From: Acidimicrobiia bacterium
GTDB taxonomy: Bacteria; Actinomycetota; Acidimicrobiia; Acidimicrobiales; Poriferisodalaceae
NCBI GenBank assembly: GCA_022822525.1
Contig: JAJEBN010000048.1
Location: 2,493-66,492, forward strand
Direction of reading: 5' to 3'
DNA length: 64,000 bases
The notes beneath the pieces were generated by a model. The model was given only the letters and a program-made list of their open reading frames with translations, had not been told where the DNA came from and searched no databases. The stretch's first letter is position 1. Every line of letters begins with the position of its first letter. Positions 3,978 through 40,262 of the stretch are shown one piece after another. The position numbers and the translations under genes were made by a program.

Positions 3978-4580
3978 ATGGCTGAGCGGGATCGCCTGAG
4001 TGCCGACGACTGGGTCGCAGCAGCCCTCGAAGTGCTGGTCACCGAGGGCATCGGCGCCGTCAAGGTCCTGCCGCTCGCCAAGCGGCTCGGCGTCACTCGG
4101 GGCAGCTTCTACTGGCACTTCGAGAACCATGAAGCCCTGCTCAATCGCCTGCTCGAGGTGTGGGAGGAAACCAACTCGGGTTCGATCATCCGGGCCGCCA
4201 CGCTCGAGGGCAGCATCATCGACCGGTATGTCGCCCTGATGCGCTGCTGGCTGGGGATGGAACGCTTCGATCCGCGTCTCGAAGTGGCCGTGCGCAATTG
4301 GGGCCGCAGCAAACCCGAGCTGTGGCAGAAGCTGCATGCGACCGATGAGCGGCGTGTGGATGCCTGCGTGGAGATGCTCGCGTCCGAGGTGAGCGATCCC
4401 GCCATGAGGCTGCACCGTGCCCGCACCATCTACTTCCTGCAGATGGGCTGGTACGAGCTCGAGGTGGATGTACCGATGGATGCCCGCATCGAGGCGTTGA
4501 CGTACTACTTCGAGATCTATGTCGGCCGTGCGCCGAGCGACGACGAGCGGGCAGCCATCGGGGCCGGGTTGCGCGTCTGA
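3978..4580 (+). CDS. TetR/AcrR family transcriptional regulator
   Basis: 200 aa; N-terminal HTH LPLAKRLGVTRGSFYWHFENHEALL. Confidence 0.85.
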   Translation: MAERDRLSADDWVAAALEVLVTEGIGAVKVLPLAKRLGVTRGSFYWHFENHEALLNRLLEVWEETNSGSIIRAATLEGSIIDRYVALMRCWLGMERFDPRLEVAVRNWGRSKPELWQKLHATDERRVDACVEMLASEVSDPAMRLHRARTIYFLQMGWYELEVDVPMDARIEALTYYFEIYVGRAPSDDERAAIGAGLRV

Positions 4581-9264: not shown

Positions 9265-10821
<1,557 letters not shown>

Positions 10822-10941
10822 GAGGCTGAGCCGAATGGCGAAGCCGTGGCCCGAGCGGCCCGTGAGCCCAATCGCATGAGACACGGGGAACAAGAGCGGA
10901 AAATGATGGCGGTACGACACGAAGGCACGTGCGGGCGACCG

Positions 10942-21567: not shown

Positions 21568-21615
21568 CTGTTGTTGCGAGCGAGGGGCGAAGCCCTTCGA
21601 GCTCGCACTGTCCAG

Positions 21616-21689
<74 letters not shown>

Positions 21690-22166: not shown

Positions 22167-22371
22167 CTCGGTCACGGGCCGCAGGGTAGTAGCGCGAGCA
22201 CTGCCACCGGCCCGCGGGCGCGCCCGGCCCGAACCGCACCGCCCGGGGACGCTTCTAGAGTTCGGGCCGAGCGTCTCGCCAGAGGCGGAGCCGACAGGCG
22301 AAGCGTGGCCCGAGCGGCCCGTGAGCCCGTATCGAGCCGAATGAGGGAACACGAGCGGGAAGCAAGGGGCA

Positions 22372-24254: not shown

Positions 24255-25997
24255 TCACTCAGACTGCTGCGGCGGCTGTGACTGCTGCGGCAGCCGTGGC
24301 CCGCCTATGCGCAGGTCCCCCCGCCGGCGCGTCACCCCCGTCCGGTCCAGATAGCCCACCAGCGGCAACGCGTACTTGCGGGTCGTGCCGAGCGCTTCGC
24401 GGATCTCCGCCACGGTGACGCCGTCCGGCTGGCGGGCCAGCAGTGCCGCAACCTGGTTTGCGGCGGAGTCGATCGCCGCGGCGGCAAACCAGATGCCGTC
24501 TGCGTGAATCAGGTCTCCTCGGCGGGCCAGCGCCAGCAGCTCCTGCTGGGTGACGCCGCTCGGCTCGGGCGGCGCGAACGGCGTCGCCGCGAGCGCCGCG
24601 ATGACGGGATGATCGGCCAGGACATCGGCGGCATCAGCCTGCCGGGCACGTCCCGCATCGATCACGATCCCGTCCAGGGACTCGATTGCGAGGCGCTGGC
24701 GCTCGTCCAGCCCGGCCAGGTCCAACCCCAGCGGTCCGGCACCCGCGACCTGTTCTCGCAGGTCGTTGAGCAGCGCGTCCACCAATTCGGGCGGGGCAAC
24801 CCAATCGCCCATCACGGGTTCGAAGCGCTGCCCGGTGAGCCGCTCGAGCTGTGCCGCCTTCGCCCAGCCGCGCTCGGCCACCAGGCGCTCGGGGCGGGCG
24901 TCGGGCTTGGCGACTGAGGCTCGAAGCTGGGGATCGGGATCGAGCACGGTGCCGCCGCCGACGGTTTGTCCCCGGCCGAAGTCCCGCAGCACGAAGCGGT
25001 CTCCCATCACGAGCGGCAACGCGACCGGCAGGTGCAGCCGGGCGTAGCCGGTCTGCCCGGGGGCGATGCGCTCGGGCCCGAGCACGCGCAGCCGCACCGG
25101 CCACTCGCCCGACCCCAGGTACAGGGCGTAGGCGCCCCGCCGGGTCACATCGCTGCCGAGGCTGCTGAGCACGGTCAGCTCCACGTCCACGCTGCGGGTG
25201 TGATGCCATTGGTCGGATCGCACCAGGGCGATGCCGCGACCCAGGTCGCCGGCGTCGACACCGGTGAGATTGAGCGCCACCCGGTGCCCCGGGCCGATGC
25301 GCTCGACCGTCGTGCCCTGGGTCTGGATCGCCCGCACCCGGGCTGCGCGGCCGCCGGGCGCTGTGCGCAGCTCGTCGCCGGCGGCGATGGCACCGCCTGC
25401 CAGCGTGCCGGTCACGATCCGCCCCGCTCCGGTGGCGGCGAACGACCGGTCGATCCACAGGCGCGGCCGGTCCCGATCGGCCGCGGTGGGGGTGGCTGCG
25501 CACAGATCGTCGAGCGCAGCACGCAGCTCGTCCAGCCCGGTGCCATCGAGTGCGTCTGTTGCGACCACCGGTGCGTCAGCCAAGAACGTGCCCTCGACGT
25601 GGTCGGCAATGTCGAGACGGGCCAGCTCGGCGAGCTCGTCGTCGACCAGGCCGATCTGGCTGAGCACTACGACGCCGTGGGAGATGCCGAGCAGCTCCAG
25701 GATCGCCAGGTGCTCGGCCGATTGCGGCTTCCAGCCTTCGGGTGCCGCCACCACGAACAGCGAGGCATCCACCGCCCCGACGCCGGCCAGCATGTTCTTG
25801 ACGAAGCGAATGTGGCCGGGCACATCCACAAAGCTGACCTGCCGGCCCGACGGCAGCGTGCAGAACGCGAACCCGAGGTCGATGGTGAGGCCGCGTTCCT
25901 TCTCTTCGGCGAGCCGGTCCGGATCGGTGCCCGTGAGGGCGCGCACCAGCGTCGACTTGCCGTGGTCCACGTGACCTGCGGTGCCGACGATGTGCAC
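24255..25997 (-). CDS. selB: Selenocysteine-specific elongation factor SelB
   Basis: 580 aa; G domain GHVDHGKSTL and DVPGH, domains II-III, and a C-terminal winged-helix extension. GTG start. Confidence 0.9.
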   Translation of the reverse strand: MHIVGTAGHVDHGKSTLVRALTGTDPDRLAEEKERGLTIDLGFAFCTLPSGRQVSFVDVPGHIRFVKNMLAGVGAVDASLFVVAAPEGWKPQSAEHLAILELLGISHGVVVLSQIGLVDDELAELARLDIADHVEGTFLADAPVVATDALDGTGLDELRAALDDLCAATPTAADRDRPRLWIDRSFAATGAGRIVTGTLAGGAIAAGDELRTAPGGRAARVRAIQTQGTTVERIGPGHRVALNLTGVDAGDLGRGIALVRSDQWHHTRSVDVELTVLSSLGSDVTRRGAYALYLGSGEWPVRLRVLGPERIAPGQTGYARLHLPVALPLVMGDRFVLRDFGRGQTVGGGTVLDPDPQLRASVAKPDARPERLVAERGWAKAAQLERLTGQRFEPVMGDWVAPPELVDALLNDLREQVAGAGPLGLDLAGLDERQRLAIESLDGIVIDAGRARQADAADVLADHPVIAALAATPFAPPEPSGVTQQELLALARRGDLIHADGIWFAAAAIDSAANQVAALLARQPDGVTVAEIREALGTTRKYALPLVGYLDRTGVTRRRGDLRIGGPRLPQQSQPPQQSE

Positions 25998-26100
25998 GCT
26001 GCCAGCTTGCCCCGCCCGGACTGTCAGTGTCGAACCGCCCGGCCGTTGTCGTGGCAGCGGAATCTGCTTGTGTAGCGTGCTGGTGCGGCCGCAAGGTCGC

Positions 26101-26171
26101 TGGTGGAGCTAGCGGAATCGAACCGCCCGAGGCCAGATTTCAGGCCGGCTCGGCGCACCAGCGGTAGCCCC
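26101..26171 (-). ncRNA. Aberrant tRNA-like element with an Ala-type acceptor stem (not tRNA-Sec)
   Basis: GGGGCTACCGCTGGTGCGCCGAGCCGGCCTGAAATCTGGCCTCGGGCGGTTCGATTCCGCTAGCTCCACCA: 7-bp acceptor with G3:U70, A73 and encoded CCA; T arm GCGG-TTCGATT-CCGC; 3-bp D stem with a 4-nt loop; 9-bp bulged stem with an 8-nt loop. See finding. Confidence 0.55.
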
Positions 26172-26174
26172 ACG

Positions 26175-26202
26175 AGAGCCGCACTTTTCGGGGTGCGGCT
26201 CT
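26175..26202 (-). other. 10-bp perfect hairpin between selA and the tRNA-like element
   Basis: agagccgcac-ttttcggg-gtgcggctct. There is no U tract on the sense (minus) strand, so it is not a classical terminator. Confidence 0.5.
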
Positions 26203-26296
26203 TGTCACGCTGGCAGACGAAACGTACGTGACTTTCATGGATTTCTGATCTCGCGCAGGAGCGCGTCGAGGCGGCCTGCGAGTCAGAATCCGTGCC

Positions 26297-27583
26297 TCAG
26301 GACTGACCCTCGAGCGCGTCGCGCACTGCAGCCGCCACCACGGTGTCGTCGGCGGGATCGACCGTGCGCAGGTCGAGCACGGTGGTCTGCTCGTTGACTC
26401 GGGCGATCACCGGCGGATCGAACGCTCGCAGTGCAGCCGCGTAGTCGCCGTCGAGCTCGATGCCGGCCGACGGGATTTCCTGGCCGGGCAGCGACCCGGC
26501 ACCCGCCAGCGCCGTCGTGCGCGACGGCCGGCCCACGCCCAGCGCCTCGGCACGCTCGGCCAGCTCGTCGACCGGCACCCTGGCCATGCGCCAGAACGGG
26601 ATGGCGTCGGCGTCGCGGCGCAGGTACGCCATCGCCACCGACTGCAGTGCGTCCAGCACCAGCGAGCCGGGCCGGAATGCCCGCATCAGCGGATGCGCTG
26701 CGCAGGCGGCTACCAGGTCGGCCGTGCCGCAGATGATCCCGGCTTGGGGGCCGCCCATCAGCTTGTCGCCCGAGAAGGTGACGAGCGCCGCGCCCGCCGC
26801 GAGCGTCTGGCGGGCGCCGGGTTCGCCGGTCAGCCATCCGGGTCGCTCGCCCAGCCACGGGCAGCGCTCGTCCAGCAGGCCCGAGCCGAGGTCGGAGACG
26901 ACCGGCGGCCCGATCTTCGCGAGCTCTGTCACCGCGGCTTCTTCGGTGAAGCCGGTGATGCGGTAGTTGGAGGGGTGCACCTTGAGCAGCAGTGCGATGT
27001 CGTCCCGCTCGGCCGCCGCGAGGTAGTCGGCCGCCCGGGTGCGATTCGTGGTGCCCACCTCGACCAGGCGGGCGCCCGATTGCTCCATCACCTCGGGTAC
27101 CCGGAAGCCGCCGCCGATCTCCACCAGCTCGCCGCGTGACACCGCCACGCCGCGGCCGCGTGCCAGCGCAGCCAGCACCAGCGTCACCGCAGCGGCGCAG
27201 TTGTTGACCACCAGCGCGGCCTCTGCGCCGGTGAGCGTTGCCAGCAGCAGCGAGGCATGCGCGGCGCGCGAGCCGCGCCGGCCCGATGCCAGGTCGAACT
27301 CCAGATTGCTGAAGCGCACCGGATGGTCGTCAAGATCTGGCCCAAGCGCCGATCTGCTGTGCTGGTTTCCCAGCGGCGCTCGGCCCAGGTTCGTGTGCAG
27401 CAGCACGCCGGTGGCGTTGACAGCGGGACCCAGCAGGCTCCGCCGCAGCCGCTGCGCCTCGCTGGCCGCCGAGTCGGGATCGCCGGCGGCGATGGCCGCA
27501 CGGGCGGCAATCACCAGCAGCGGGTGCGGAAGGCCGGTGTCGGCGATGCTCAGCGCCAGGTCGTTCACCGACGGCGGCCTCAT
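26297..27583 (-). CDS. selA: L-seryl-tRNA(Sec) selenium transferase SelA
   Basis: 428 aa from the ATG at 27583; VNATGVLLHTNLGRAPL and the PLP-lysine motif FSGDKLMGGPQAG. The first 236 codons of track ORF 26297..28291 are antisense to the Nudix gene and are rejected. Confidence 0.9.
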   Translation of the reverse strand: MRPPSVNDLALSIADTGLPHPLLVIAARAAIAAGDPDSAASEAQRLRRSLLGPAVNATGVLLHTNLGRAPLGNQHSRSALGPDLDDHPVRFSNLEFDLASGRRGSRAAHASLLLATLTGAEAALVVNNCAAAVTLVLAALARGRGVAVSRGELVEIGGGFRVPEVMEQSGARLVEVGTTNRTRAADYLAAAERDDIALLLKVHPSNYRITGFTEEAAVTELAKIGPPVVSDLGSGLLDERCPWLGERPGWLTGEPGARQTLAAGAALVTFSGDKLMGGPQAGIICGTADLVAACAAHPLMRAFRPGSLVLDALQSVAMAYLRRDADAIPFWRMARVPVDELAERAEALGVGRPSRTTALAGAGSLPGQEIPSAGIELDGDYAAALRAFDPPVIARVNEQTTVLDLRTVDPADDTVVAAAVRDALEGQS

Positions 27584-40166: not shown

Positions 40167-40262
40167 TGGCGGAGGTGGACGGGAATCGAACCCGCCGGAC
40201 GGGGATCACCCGTCCCGCCCGCTTTGAAGGCGGGGGAGCCCACCAGGCGCTCAGACACCTCC
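40167..40262 (-). tRNA. selC: tRNA-Sec (selC), anticodon UCA
   Basis: 96 nt: GGAGGTG acceptor stem, 6-bp D stem with 4-nt loop (TGGT), anticodon arm CCCGC-CTTCAAA-GCGGG, long variable arm GGACGGG-TGATC-CCCGTCC, T arm CGGG-TTCGATT-CCCG, G73 and encoded CCA. Confidence 0.9.

What the first reader, a model, noticed from the sequence alone, without database searches (positions are those of the whole stretch)
26083..26202. Ala-type tRNA-like element with no usable anticodon loop, inside the selA-selB operon where selC would be expected
A 71-nt minus-strand element lies between the selA stop (26297) and the selB start (25997). Its ends are tRNA-perfect:
- a 7-bp acceptor stem GGGGCUA/UAGCUCC containing G3:U70;
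- discriminator A73 and an encoded CCA;
- a canonical T arm GCGG-UUCGAUU-CCGC.
G3:U70 plus A73 is the classical AlaRS (and tmRNA) identity set, and the acceptor and T arm are almost those of a bacterial tRNA-Ala.

The core is not tRNA-like:
- the D arm is only CGC-UGGU-GCG;
- there is no variable region;
- the anticodon position holds a 9-bp bulged stem (CCGAG-CCGG ... CUGG-C-CUCGG) capped by an 8-nt loop CCUGAAAU;
- I could not draw any 5-bp stem with a 7-nt loop, and there is no UCA on this strand.

A textbook tRNA-Sec exists elsewhere (40167-40262), so this is not a miscalled selC.

The 7-mer at 26178-26184 is complementary both to 26193-26199 (a local 10-bp hairpin, 26175-26202) and to 26083-26089 on the far side of the element. 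These are two mutually exclusive pairings that either free or clamp the tRNA-like fold.

Possible interpretations are a processed small RNA, an operon-internal processing or stability signal (RNase P/Z substrate), a mimic sensed by the Sec machinery, or a decayed tRNA-Ala.
Basis: partly seen in the sequence, partly recalled or inferred. Interest (0 to 1): 0.8.

Follow-up and report, generated by a model that had tools for sequence, protein, structure and literature searches.

The report
Portable anticodon-less tRNA-Ala-like element
A conserved 71-73-base RNA fold resembling an alanine tRNA without an anticodon sits between selA and selB in this sponge-symbiont genome, but it belongs to a movable intergenic module unrelated to selenocysteine and is probably cut out by the tRNA-processing enzymes.

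Summary
On the minus strand, 26171->26101 folds as a compact cloverleaf:
- a 7-bp acceptor stem with G3:U70
- a short D arm with a UGGU loop
- a T arm GGUUCGAUUCC
- A73-CCA
- no anticodon loop

ARAGORN and Rfam do not call it.

The organism is Candidatus Poriferisodalis (Acidimicrobiia). The fold recurs in 22 distinct sequences from this genus. Eight base pairs show compensatory changes, and G3:U70 is invariant. Mean pairwise identity is 88%, against 62% at selB fourfold sites.

It is not linked to selenocysteine:
- 11 of 30 congeners lack it upstream of selB.
- Outgroups have selA and selB abutting.
- The same ~190-nt module lies between a dehydrogenase gene and an ABC-transporter gene in other Poriferisodalis contigs.

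The module consists of an AU-rich leader, an 11-bp hairpin, the tRNA-like fold, a 6-bp hairpin and a conserved tail.

The window copy is a slightly damaged version, with a D-stem mismatch and a 1-nt T-stem deletion.

Best reading, which is inferred and not shown: it is a t-element/mascRNA-like unit excised by RNase P. This leaves a hairpin-capped upstream mRNA and releases an RNA that is probably alanine-chargeable but cannot decode.

Similar compact G3:U70 tRNA-like genes occur in unrelated metagenomic bacteria.

The parts
26057..26248 (-). Whole portable module (~192 nt): AU-rich leader, 5' hairpin, tRNA-like core, 3' hairpin, conserved tail
   Evidence: blastn of L100 against the window aligns exactly this stretch (75.6% over 193 nt), with unrelated flanks. 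The same span is 80-98% identical in 23 selA-selB loci.
26204..26250 (-). Conserved AU-rich leader (GATCAGAAATCCATGAAAGT ... TGCCAGCGTGAC), unstructured
   Evidence: Conserved in sequence in both genomic contexts. No sigma-70-like promoter match. Function not assigned.
26174..26203 (-). 5' hairpin: 11 bp in relatives, 10 bp in the window, with a variable 8-9-nt loop. It ends 2 nt before G1.
   Evidence: Predicted by RNAalifold. Two pairs show compensatory changes: G-C to A-U in L019 and A-U to G-C in L100.
26101..26171 (-). tRNA-Ala-type cloverleaf without an anticodon (71 nt here, 72-73 nt in relatives). Acceptor 26171-26165 / 26111-26105 with G3:U70. D arm 26164-26153 with loop UGGU. Anticodon-like arm 26152-26128. 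T arm 26127-26112. A73-CCA 26104-26101.
   Evidence: MFE and RNAalifold give a cloverleaf. Compensatory changes occur at 4:69 (G-C, C-G, A-U), 5:68, 6:67, 10:25 and 50:64. G3:U70 is present in 22 of 22. Model R1 scores it 130.5 bits and it is the only copy in the window.
26128..26152 (-). Anticodon-like arm: conserved 4-bp base (CGAG/CUCG) carrying a ~17-18-nt cap. The pairing register of the cap is not conserved, but its U-G-A-(A/U)-A is invariant.
   Evidence: Alignments A3-A5. Only 1 inner pair is proposed by RNAalifold. No 5-bp stem with a 7-nt loop is possible in any copy.
26085..26100 (-). 3' hairpin (6 bp, tetraloop) starting directly after CCA
   Evidence: Predicted by RNAalifold. One compensatory pair, C-G to U-A in L113. 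The A:C mismatch at the fourth pair is common, so support is weaker (88.6% of cells paired).
26059..26073 (-). Conserved tail ACACAAGCAGATTCC
   Evidence: Conserved in all copies, including the SDR-SBP context. Function not assigned.
26297..27421 (-). selA 3' part (Pfam SelA domain 26360-27421; stop codon 26297-26299): the upstream gene whose transcript would carry the module
   Evidence: Pfam SelA, E 2.2e-96.
24255..25997 (-). selB. It is preceded by a conserved CAAGCT box (26009-26004) 6 nt before the GTG start, so it may be leaderless with its own promoter.
   Evidence: Pfam GTP_EFTU, SelB-wing_3 and Beta-barrel_SelB. The box is conserved with or without the module. The promoter role is inferred.

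Best explanation
**What is shown.**
- The element is the core of a ~190-nt portable intergenic module of Candidatus Poriferisodalis genomes.
- The module is under purifying selection for a compact tRNA-Ala-type cloverleaf.
- That cloverleaf has a 7-bp acceptor stem with G3:U70, a 4-bp D stem with a UGGU loop, a 5-bp T arm, an encoded A73-CCA and no linker nucleotides. A poorly paired cap stands in place of an anticodon arm.
- It is flanked by two conserved hairpins.
- It is not tied to selenocysteine genes.

**What is inferred.**
- The module is transcribed by read-through from the gene upstream (here selA) and is recognised by the tRNA-maturation machinery.
- RNase P cuts at G1, 2 nt after the 11-bp hairpin. 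The upstream mRNA therefore ends in a protective hairpin.
- The 3' side is trimmed back to the encoded CCA, releasing a 71-73-nt RNA.
- This RNA carries the full alanine identity set. It is therefore probably chargeable by AlaRS, but it cannot decode.
- In mechanism this is the bacterial counterpart of plant mitochondrial t-elements and of MALAT1/mascRNA.
For: **Fold and selection**
- RNAalifold independently returns a 5' hairpin, a cloverleaf and a 3' hairpin.
- 8 pairs have changes on both sides, 96.4% of cells are paired, and 0 of 500 shuffles reach this.
- Mean pairwise identity of the element is 87.6%, against 62% at selB fourfold sites in the same 17 genomes.

**RNase P determinants, all conserved**
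- A 12-bp acceptor/T stack.
- A GG-containing D loop and a UUCGAUU T loop.
- An invariant ACCA.
- The anticodon arm, which RNase P does not need, is the only part that drifts.

**Position**
- The module is always co-directional with its neighbours. It lies after the stop codon of the upstream gene.
- In the second context it lies upstream of a strong promoter-like site. This is TTTACA-18-TATAGT (10 of 12 matches), ending 8 nt before the ATG of the downstream gene.
- It therefore sits at the 3' end of a transcription unit.
- No promoter-like or intrinsic-terminator-like site of its own was found.

**Portability and independence from Sec genes**
- The same module sits between an SDR gene and an ABC solute-binding-protein gene in L100, L113 and L114.
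- It is absent upstream of selB in 11 of 30 congeners and in all outgroups.

**Precedents**
- t-elements define mRNA ends through RNase P/Z and are CCA-tailed (PMC1920247, PMC11658184).
Against: - There are no expression or end-mapping data, so every processing step is inferred.
- A pure processing signal does not need G3:U70, yet it is invariant in 22 of 22 copies while 4:69, 5:68 and 6:67 flip.
- The AU-rich leader, the tail and the invariant UGA(A/U)A of the cap are conserved but unexplained.
- The module has been lost repeatedly, so whatever it does is dispensable at a given site.
- The window copy carries two lesions: a D-stem mismatch and a T-stem deletion. In precursor context its MFE is not the cloverleaf.
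- An alternative helix, CGCUGGUG with CACCAGCG, competes with the cloverleaf in several copies.
Confidence: 0.5

Rival explanations
1. The excised RNA is the point, not the cut. It would be a trans-acting, alanine-charged, non-decoding tRNA-like RNA. Possible roles are an Ala donor for a non-ribosomal reaction, or a minimal tmRNA-like (tRNA-like domain only) molecule. It would belong to a wider undescribed family of compact G3:U70 tRNA-like genes.
For: - G1:C72, G3:U70, A73 and CCA are invariant, and G2:C71 holds in 20 of 22, while neighbouring acceptor pairs covary.
- CCA is always encoded, although a real tRNA of the same genomes (tRNA-Pro) mostly lacks it.
- A pattern scan of metagenomes found 7 further distinct genes, plus a tandem partner in L094, with the same 7 / 4-4-4 / variable / 5-7-5 / 7 / ACCA layout and G3:U70. 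They come from unrelated contigs.
- Some of these look like stand-alone genes: an intrinsic terminator in L095, and housekeeping neighbours (L31, RF1, 6PGDH) in L104 and L106.
- L104's gene lies next to the same GNAT gene where a relative (L110) has tRNA-Ala(GGC).
- Rfam scores them only as sub-threshold tmRNA through the acceptor and T arm.
Against: - The search pattern itself forced the D-arm sequence, the T loop and the UCCACCA end. Family resemblance is therefore partly imposed.
- There is no aminoacylation or expression evidence.
- No conserved partner gene is seen next to the elements.
- In Poriferisodalis the module is absent from both known sites in at least one genome (L031/L115).
- The element evolves much faster than a working tRNA: 87.6% against 98.9% identity.
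Confidence: 0.22
2. It is a low-copy selfish or mobile intergenic element. The tRNA-like fold and flanking hairpins would serve its own spread or persistence, for example recognition by a recombinase or transposase, or by an RNA-templated route. The host would gain nothing.
For: - There are at least two unrelated insertion sites with sharply bounded homology.
- Presence and absence are interleaved on the SelB tree.
- The two sequence types are also interleaved there; for example L019 and L043 are sisters with different types.
- These genomes carry another abundant small dispersed repeat, which even inserts next to the module.
Against: - No terminal inverted repeats or target-site duplications were seen at either site.
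- Only one copy occurs in 64 kb, and none in about 260 kb of other loci.
- No transposase or integrase gene is adjacent.
- The constraint pattern is that of an RNA cloverleaf, including G.U and compensatory changes, rather than of a DNA site.
Confidence: 0.12
3. It is a decaying tRNA-Ala pseudogene with no function.
For: - The acceptor stem GGGGCUA/UAGCUCC-ACCA and the T arm are those of a bacterial tRNA-Ala (my own knowledge of tRNA-Ala sequences).
- The window copy has two lesions relative to the consensus.
- The element has been lost repeatedly.
Against: - It is 88% conserved where neutral sites are 62%.
- Eight compensatory pairs are seen.
- Flanking hairpins and tails are co-conserved and move together between sites.
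- The compact D arm and the absence of linkers are shared by all copies. That is a design, not random decay.
Confidence: 0.04
4. It is a tRNA-Sec or SECIS mimic sensed by SelA or SelB that regulates selB. One version has the invariant UGA of the loop pairing with the UCA anticodon of tRNA-Sec.
For: - It is located between selA and selB in the window.
- The best Rfam hit is tRNA-Sec (31.4 bits), driven by the 4-nt UGGU D loop.
- UGA is invariant in the cap.
Against: - The same module lies between SDR and ABC-transporter genes.
- It is absent upstream of selB in 11 of 30 congeners, 8 of which keep selA next to selB, and in all outgroups that keep selA-selB.
- The 8/9-bp acceptor stem, G73, long variable arm and 6-bp D stem of tRNA-Sec are all missing.
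- Consensus-type copies score best as tmRNA, not tRNA-Sec.
Confidence: 0.03
5. It is a working, non-canonical decoding tRNA with a compact core and an enlarged anticodon loop.
For: - The cap contains a Y-U-G-A-W-A-Y heptamer that resembles an anticodon loop.
- One unrelated family member (L094b) is called tRNA-Arg(ACG) by ARAGORN.
Against: - No 5-bp stem closes a 7-nt loop in any copy.
- The would-be position 36 varies A/U between close relatives.
- Ala charging combined with a Phe or Ile anticodon would cause mistranslation.
- ARAGORN does not call any of the 23 copies in the loci it scanned (L113/L114 were not scanned).
Confidence: 0.02

Closest known systems
Plant mitochondrial t-elements (tRNA-like sequences at mRNA ends)
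   Same: - A tRNA-derived fold embedded next to protein-coding genes on the same strand.
- t-elements are cut by RNase P/Z, which defines the mRNA ends.
- The released piece is CCA-tailed and does not decode (PMC1920247, PMC11658184).
- The module here sits between a stop codon and the next promoter.
   Different: - t-elements are organellar, have no encoded CCA and are not aminoacylated.
- This element is bacterial and chromosomal, and it encodes CCA.
- It keeps the full AlaRS identity set.
- It has a compact core without linkers and is flanked by two conserved hairpins.
- It moves as a module between sites.
- Processing has not been shown here.
MALAT1 / mascRNA 3'-end processing (mammals)
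   Same: RNase P cleavage 5' of a tRNA-like fold creates the mature 3' end of the upstream RNA, and a structure immediately upstream protects that end. Here an 11-bp hairpin ends 2 nt before G1.
   Different: - mascRNA is eukaryotic and Pol II-derived.
- The protective structure there is a triple helix.
- mascRNA lacks aaRS identity elements and gets its CCA added after transcription (as summarised in PMC11658184).
Bacterial tRNA-Ala
   Same: - Acceptor stem GGGGCUA/UAGCUCC.
- G3:U70, A73 and CCA.
- T loop UUCGAUU.
- Probably the evolutionary source.
   Different: - No anticodon stem-loop.
- The D arm is reduced to 4 bp plus UGGU.
- No nucleotides at positions 8-9 or 26, and no variable region.
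- Not called by ARAGORN and below the Rfam tRNA threshold.
- It evolves about ten times faster than tRNA-Pro in the same genomes.
tmRNA tRNA-like domain, and the ORF-less mitochondrial tmRNAs of jakobids
   Same: - The acceptor stem with G3:U70, the T arm and ACCA are the only parts that match.
- There is no anticodon.
- Rfam aligns consensus copies and the wider family to tmRNA through exactly these parts.
   Different: - No mRNA-like reading frame and no pseudoknots: only 25-30 nt lie between the D and T arms.
- A real D stem is present.
- Scores are 17-34 bits against a cut-off of 47.
- ARAGORN finds no tmRNA.
- No link to SmpB is known.
tRNA-Sec (Rfam RF01852), the best database hit for the window copy
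   Same: A 4-nt UGGU D loop and a G+C-rich long arm 5' of the T arm.
   Different: - No UCA anticodon arm.
- A 7/5 rather than 8/5 acceptor/T stack.
- A73, not G73.
- A D stem of 3-4 bp, not 6.
- 31.4 bits, below the cut-off of 47.
- The real selC is at 40167-40262.
Irregular and allo-tRNAs with G3:U70 (Mukai et al. 2017, PMC5389517)
   Same: These are non-canonical bacterial tRNA-shaped genes found in metagenomes. Some carry G3:U70 and are charged with Ala in E. coli, and some are proposed to be non-translating or regulatory.
   Different: Allo-tRNAs have 8/4 or 9/3 stacks, long variable arms and real anticodon loops. None of these features is present here.

Membership tests
Canonical tRNA (Rfam RF00005 / ARAGORN) | Called by tRNA detectors at their thresholds | tested here: not met
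   ARAGORN calls only tRNA-Pro and tRNA-SeC in the window. It calls none of the copies in the loci scanned. Nothing in Rfam reaches a gathering score.
Canonical tRNA (Rfam RF00005 / ARAGORN) | 5-bp anticodon stem with a 7-nt loop; linker nucleotides 8-9 and 26; a variable region | tested here: not met
   The helices abut without linkers. Only a 4-bp stem base is conserved, and the cap has no conserved register.
Canonical tRNA (Rfam RF00005 / ARAGORN) | 7-bp acceptor stem, 5-bp T stem with a UUCRAUU loop, GG in the D loop | tested here: met
   Met in the relatives (22 sequences, with compensatory changes). The window copy itself has a 1-nt deletion in the T stem.
tRNA-Sec | 13-bp acceptor/T stack (8/5), UCA anticodon, long variable arm, 6-bp D stem, G73; Rfam cut-off 47 bits | tested here: not met
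   31.4 bits with the anticodon arm deleted. Positions -1/-2 are not conserved as pairs. There is no TCA on the strand.
tmRNA | tRNA-like domain with G3:U70 and a T arm | tested here: met
   The Rfam tmRNA model aligns only the acceptor stem and T arm.
tmRNA | Internal tag reading frame with a resume codon, pseudoknots; Rfam cut-off 47 bits or an ARAGORN call | tested here: not met
   Only 25-30 nt lie between the D and T arms. Score is 17.7 bits for a consensus copy. ARAGORN finds no tmRNA.
AlaRS substrates (alanine identity set) | G3:U70 wobble pair, A73, G2:C71 and a 3' CCA on an acceptor/T minihelix | tested here: met
   G3:U70 in 22 of 22, A73-CCA in 22 of 22, G2:C71 in 20 of 22. That these features suffice for charging comes from established minihelix work, which is my own knowledge.
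AlaRS substrates (alanine identity set) | Actual aminoacylation with alanine | not testable with these tools
   Needs in vitro charging or periodate-based tRNA-seq.
t-element / mascRNA-type processing elements | tRNA-like fold on the sense strand at the end of a transcription unit | tested here: met
   The module is co-directional, lies after the upstream stop codon, and lies upstream of the promoter-like site of the next gene in L113 and L100. For selA-selB, the promoter of selB is only inferred.
t-element / mascRNA-type processing elements | Cleavage by RNase P (and 3' maturation) in vivo | not testable with these tools
   No transcript data are available.
Small mobile intergenic repeats (MITE / REP-like) | Many copies, terminal inverted repeats, target-site duplications | tested here: not met
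   Two sites are known. There is one copy per 64 kb, and none elsewhere in about 260 kb. No TIR or TSD is seen at filled versus empty sites. Whole genomes could not be scanned.

The most novel reading that the evidence does not exclude
The Poriferisodalis element would be one branch of a previously unrecognised, phylogenetically wide family of compact tRNA-shaped RNAs of about 72 nt with no anticodon. Family features are no linker nucleotides, a CCGC-UGGU-GCGG-type D arm, a hypervariable arm in place of the anticodon arm, and invariant G1-G2-G3:U70, A73 and CCA. These RNAs would be charged with alanine and act outside normal decoding, for example as ORF-less tmRNA-like rescue factors or as dedicated Ala donors. 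Genomes would deploy them either as stand-alone genes or, as here, embedded in mRNA 3' regions.
Probability: 0.22. Interest if true: 0.85.

Novelty: new variant of a known kind. Interest (0 to 1): 0.6.

Why it matters
tRNA-like folds that punctuate mRNAs are known from organelles and from mammalian MALAT1. No bacterial chromosomal counterpart that travels as a self-contained hairpin/tRNA-like/hairpin module has been described, as far as I could find.

If the processing model holds, it shows a portable way for bacteria to create hairpin-capped mRNA 3' ends without an intrinsic terminator.

If the RNA is also alanylated, it adds a new class of non-decoding aminoacyl carriers alongside tmRNA. The strict retention of G3:U70, A73 and CCA, and the look-alike genes in unrelated bacteria, hint at this.

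For annotation, it shows that tRNA and tmRNA detectors and Rfam all miss a conserved RNA that a simple pattern plus covariation analysis recovers. It also removes a tempting but wrong link to selenocysteine biology.

Tried and rejected
1. Rfam at permissive thresholds on the window copy and on a consensus copy gave only sub-threshold tRNA-Sec and tmRNA matches.

2. The 33-codon ORF starting at ATGAAAGT and ending at the loop TGA is not conserved. L002 stops earlier and L003 has no ATG (my reading).

3. Two candidate registers for the upper 'anticodon' stem were each broken in several relatives.

4. A sigma-70 promoter and intrinsic terminator scan of 25800-26500 found nothing.

5. The AU-rich leader does not form a conserved structure.

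6. A 4-bp GAUC/GAUU pairing between leader and tail seemed to covary in L100 but fails in L036.

7. No 9-mer or longer of the cap recurs nearby in Poriferisodalis loci beyond G+C-rich chance matches.

8. Viral-contig scans returned ordinary phage tRNAs and tmRNA ends, or an unrelated longer RNA.

9. A phage-database blastn with the tandem L094 genes found nothing useful.

10. My impression that L105's neighbour is the C-terminus of a serine recombinase got no Pfam support. I therefore do not claim that the wider family serves as integration sites.

11. Literature searches for anticodon-less Ala-type bacterial tRNA-like RNAs found no description. A search for Poriferisodalis found no paper at all.

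12. The look-up of P0159 failed. The presence of two copies in a single genome (L019's) is therefore only probable, through an identical SBP protein, and is not verified.
Full report
**1. Observation**

On the minus strand, the sequence from 26171 to 26101 reads GGGGCUACCGCUGGUGCGCCGAGCCGGCCUGAAAUCUGGCCUCGGGCGGUUCGAUUCCGCUAGCUCCACCA.
- a 7-bp acceptor stem with G3:U70
- A73-CCA
- the T arm
- the CGC-UGGU-GCG D arm
- a bulged stem capped by CCUGAAAU
- no UCA

Its MFE is a cloverleaf, but with an unremarkable z-score of -0.94.

The flanking ORFs are selA (Pfam SelA, E 2e-96, stop at 26297) and selB (GTG at 25997). A genuine tRNA-Sec lies at 40167-40262.

ARAGORN does not call the element, and nothing in Rfam reaches a gathering score. 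In permissive mode the best match is tRNA-Sec at 31.4 bits (cut-off 47). That alignment deletes the whole anticodon arm and is driven by the UGGU D loop and the T arm.

**2. Organism and relatives**

SelB homologues identify the source as Candidatus Poriferisodalis, an Acidimicrobiia sponge symbiont. I fetched selB loci from species-representative genomes and other assemblies.

Counts for the 30 Poriferisodalis-clade genome loci:

| State upstream of selB | Loci |
|---|---|
| Element present in the selA-selB spacer | 18 |
| Contig cut inside the element's tail (L027) | 1 |
| selA followed by selB after only 30-100 nt, no element | 8 |
| A different gene upstream of selB | 3 |

In more distant Acidimicrobiia (about 51-68% SelB identity), selA and selB abut or overlap and nothing similar is present.

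**3. Fold and selection**

In an alignment of 20 distinct spacers, the conserved block is much longer than the 71 nt. RNAalifold returns, without guidance:
- an 11-bp hairpin ending 2 nt before G1
- the cloverleaf
- a 6-bp hairpin starting directly after CCA

On 22 distinct sequences:

| Measure | Result |
|---|---|
| Cells that form a standard pair | 96.4% |
| Pairs changed on both sides | 8 |
| Shuffles reaching the observed covariation | 0 of 500 |
| Such pairs in slid controls | 0-1 |

The eight compensatory pairs are:
- 4:69, seen as G-C, C-G and A-U
- 5:68
- 6:67
- 10:25
- 50:64
- two pairs in the 5' hairpin
- one pair in the 3' hairpin

G3:U70 and A73-CCA are invariant.

Rates in the same 17 genomes:

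| Sequence | Mean pairwise identity |
|---|---|
| Element | 87.6% |
| selB fourfold sites | 62% |
| tRNA-Pro(CGG) | 98.9% |

The fold is therefore under purifying selection, but far less tightly than a working tRNA.

**4.

- The consensus has a 4-bp D stem (CCGC/GCGG or GCGC/GCGC) and a 5-bp T stem. The window copy, and its near-identical twin L001, has a C.C mismatch and a 1-nt T-stem deletion.
- Consensus copies fold as cloverleaves with z about -1.8 to -1.9.
- The four helices abut without any linker nucleotides.
- Only the 4-bp base of the anticodon-like arm is conserved. The cap of about 18 nt has indels and no consistent register, yet it keeps U-G-A-(A/U)-A.
- The 9-bp acceptor stem implied by the tRNA-Sec alignment is not conserved.
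- The 7-mer at 26083-26089, invoked for an alternative pairing, is window-specific.
- A different competitor helix does exist in all copies. CGCUGGUG of the D arm can pair with CACCAGCG, which spans the CCA and the trailer. This is the MFE in some precursor-length folds. Both strands are invariant, so it cannot be tested by covariation.

**5. No link to selenocysteine**

A pattern scan of metagenome contigs recovered L100. There the same unit is 75.6% identical to window 26057-26248, with unrelated flanks. It lies between a short-chain dehydrogenase gene and an ABC solute-binding-protein gene.

The best homologues of that binding protein are from Ca. Poriferisodalis. The same site has these states:
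- Filled in L113 and L114, where the module starts at the dehydrogenase stop codon.
- Empty in L115, which is the genome of L031 and also lacks the module at selA-selB.
- Empty in L116, which is the genome of L004 and has the module at selA-selB.

In the filled sites, a promoter-like TTTACA-18-TATAGT ending 8 nt before the ATG lies downstream of the module. The module therefore sits at the 3' end of the upstream transcription unit.

selB likewise keeps a CAAGCT/CATGCT box 6 nt before its GTG, with or without the module. This suggests a leaderless gene with its own promoter, which is an inference.

**6. Copy number and history**

A covariance model of the hairpin/cloverleaf/hairpin (R1) gave these results:
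- One copy in the window, at 130.5 bits. The next hit is 19 bits, which is the palindromic hairpin read on the other strand.
- No copies in about 260 kb of loci that lack it.

On a SelB neighbour-joining tree, filled and empty spacers are interleaved. So are the two sequence types, GGGGCUA/CCGC and GGGCCUA/GCGC. This implies repeated loss, and exchange or gene conversion between sites.

Comparisons of filled and empty sites show clean indels, but no terminal repeats or target duplications.

**7. Mechanism (inferred)**

Everything RNase P reads is conserved:
- the 12-bp acceptor/T stack
- the D/T-loop elbow nucleotides
- RCCA

The arm that RNase P ignores drifts. A strong hairpin ends 2 nt before the predicted cut. 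The unit has no promoter-like or terminator-like site of its own and is always co-directional with its neighbours.

The most economical model has three steps:
1. Transcription by read-through from the upstream gene.
2. RNase P cleavage at G1, which leaves a hairpin-capped upstream mRNA.
3. 3' trimming to the encoded CCA.

Mechanistically this equals plant mitochondrial t-elements (PMC1920247, PMC11658184) and MALAT1/mascRNA.

The model does not explain the strict retention of the alanine identity set. A real tRNA of these genomes, tRNA-Pro, mostly lacks an encoded CCA, while the element always has one. A role for the released, probably Ala-chargeable RNA is therefore a serious rival or an addition.

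**8. Wider family (a lead, only partly followed)**

The same metagenome scan returned 12 contigs from other organisms, holding seven distinct genes plus a tandem partner in L094. All share the 7 / 4-4-4 / 25-32 / 5-7-5 / 7 / ACCA layout with G3:U70 and fully compensated acceptor stems.

- None of the pattern-matched genes is called by ARAGORN; only the tandem partner in L094 is, as tRNA-Arg (ACG).
- Rfam scores them as sub-threshold tmRNA, 17-34 bits.
- Contexts include housekeeping genes: L31, RF1, atpB and 6PGDH.
- L095 has an intrinsic terminator.
- L094 has a tandem pair on a phage-like contig.
- In one lineage the gene sits next to the same GNAT gene where a relative has tRNA-Ala(GGC).
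- In four of them, 10-12 nt of the variable arm recur within 150 nt. This is unexplained.

Caveat: the pattern forced the D-arm sequence, the T loop and the UCCACCA end. Common ancestry is therefore not established.

**9. Comparison with known families, and verdict**

The element fails the defining tests of tRNA, tRNA-Sec and tmRNA. It matches the positional definition of a t-element-like processing unit, and it carries the sequence definition of an AlaRS substrate. I found no description of such a bacterial element.

I rate it a new variant of a known kind (tRNA-like processing elements and tRNA mimics), with moderate-to-high interest. The Sec-related reading that motivated the original score is rejected. 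The main weakness is the complete lack of transcript evidence.

Noticed in passing
window 10806-10899 (+) and 22282-22359 (+); also L100 7381-7476 and the selA-selB spacers of L009/L010/L035: A dispersed 50-95-nt G+C-rich repeat with core GAGCCGnnTGGCGAAGCCGTGGCCCGAGCGGCCCGTGAGC. More than 20 further copies lie at varying intergenic places in the Poriferisodalis loci. It looks REP/MITE-like and has no Rfam match at gathering score.
   Followed up: partly
L094 302-452 (-), the same as L099 1818-1968 (-): Two tandem compact G3:U70 tRNA-like genes lie 6 nt apart. ARAGORN calls one of them tRNA-Arg (ACG). They sit about 280 nt from a sub-threshold type III hammerhead match (39 bits, cut-off 48.5), on a contig of small same-strand ORFs with one PHROG hit.
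   Followed up: partly
L096/L102/L104 (884-955 in L104), L097 443-514, L101 532-604, L103 1122-1198, L105 537-608, L095/L106: Compact tRNA-shaped genes without an anticodon, carrying G3:U70, occur in unrelated metagenomic bacteria. In L097, L098 and L101 (direct) and L105 (inverted), 10-12 nt of the variable arm recur within 150 nt of the gene.
   Followed up: partly
L110 238-313 and 1440-1500; L111 1203-1450: These are tRNA-Ala integration scars. In L110, an intact tRNA-Ala(GGC) and a GCTCCACCA remnant bracket a 1.2-kb insert upstream of the GNAT gene. In L111, tRNA-Ala(CGC) is followed by two tandem 3' fragments, each preceded by a hairpin.
   Followed up: no
window 21615-21689 (-): tRNA-Pro(CGG) has no encoded CCA (discriminator A followed by CUGG). 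It is 98.9% identical across 17 Poriferisodalis species. selC and the tRNA-like element both encode CCA.
   Followed up: yes
window 25995-26009 (-): A conserved CAAGCT/CATGCT box lies 6 nt before the selB GTG, and no Shine-Dalgarno sequence is evident. This suggests a leaderless selB with its own promoter. The box is present whether or not the module is there.
   Followed up: partly
window 26153-26162 and 26097-26104 (-): CGCUGGUG of the D arm is complementary to CACCAGCG, which covers C72-A73-CCA plus the first 3 nt of the trailer. This holds in all copies, and the helix is the MFE in several precursor-length folds. The UGGU/ACCA part resembles T-box UGGN/NCCA pairing. It cannot be tested because both strands are invariant.
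   Followed up: partly
window 25942-25951: The D-arm 10-mer CGCTGGTGCG also occurs in selB (the codons for TLVR after the GKS P-loop) in most Poriferisodalis species. This is probably chance in a G+C-rich genome.
   Followed up: no
L116 1768-1830: Where other genomes carry the module, the SDR-SBP spacer of this genome holds about four tandem ~17-nt repeats (ACTGCGATTCGATTGAT).
   Followed up: no
L025, L028, L029 (upstream of selB at 4001): In three Poriferisodalis genomes selB is preceded not by selA but by the end of a long unrelated ORF. The selA-selB pair has therefore been broken up in that lineage.
   Followed up: no
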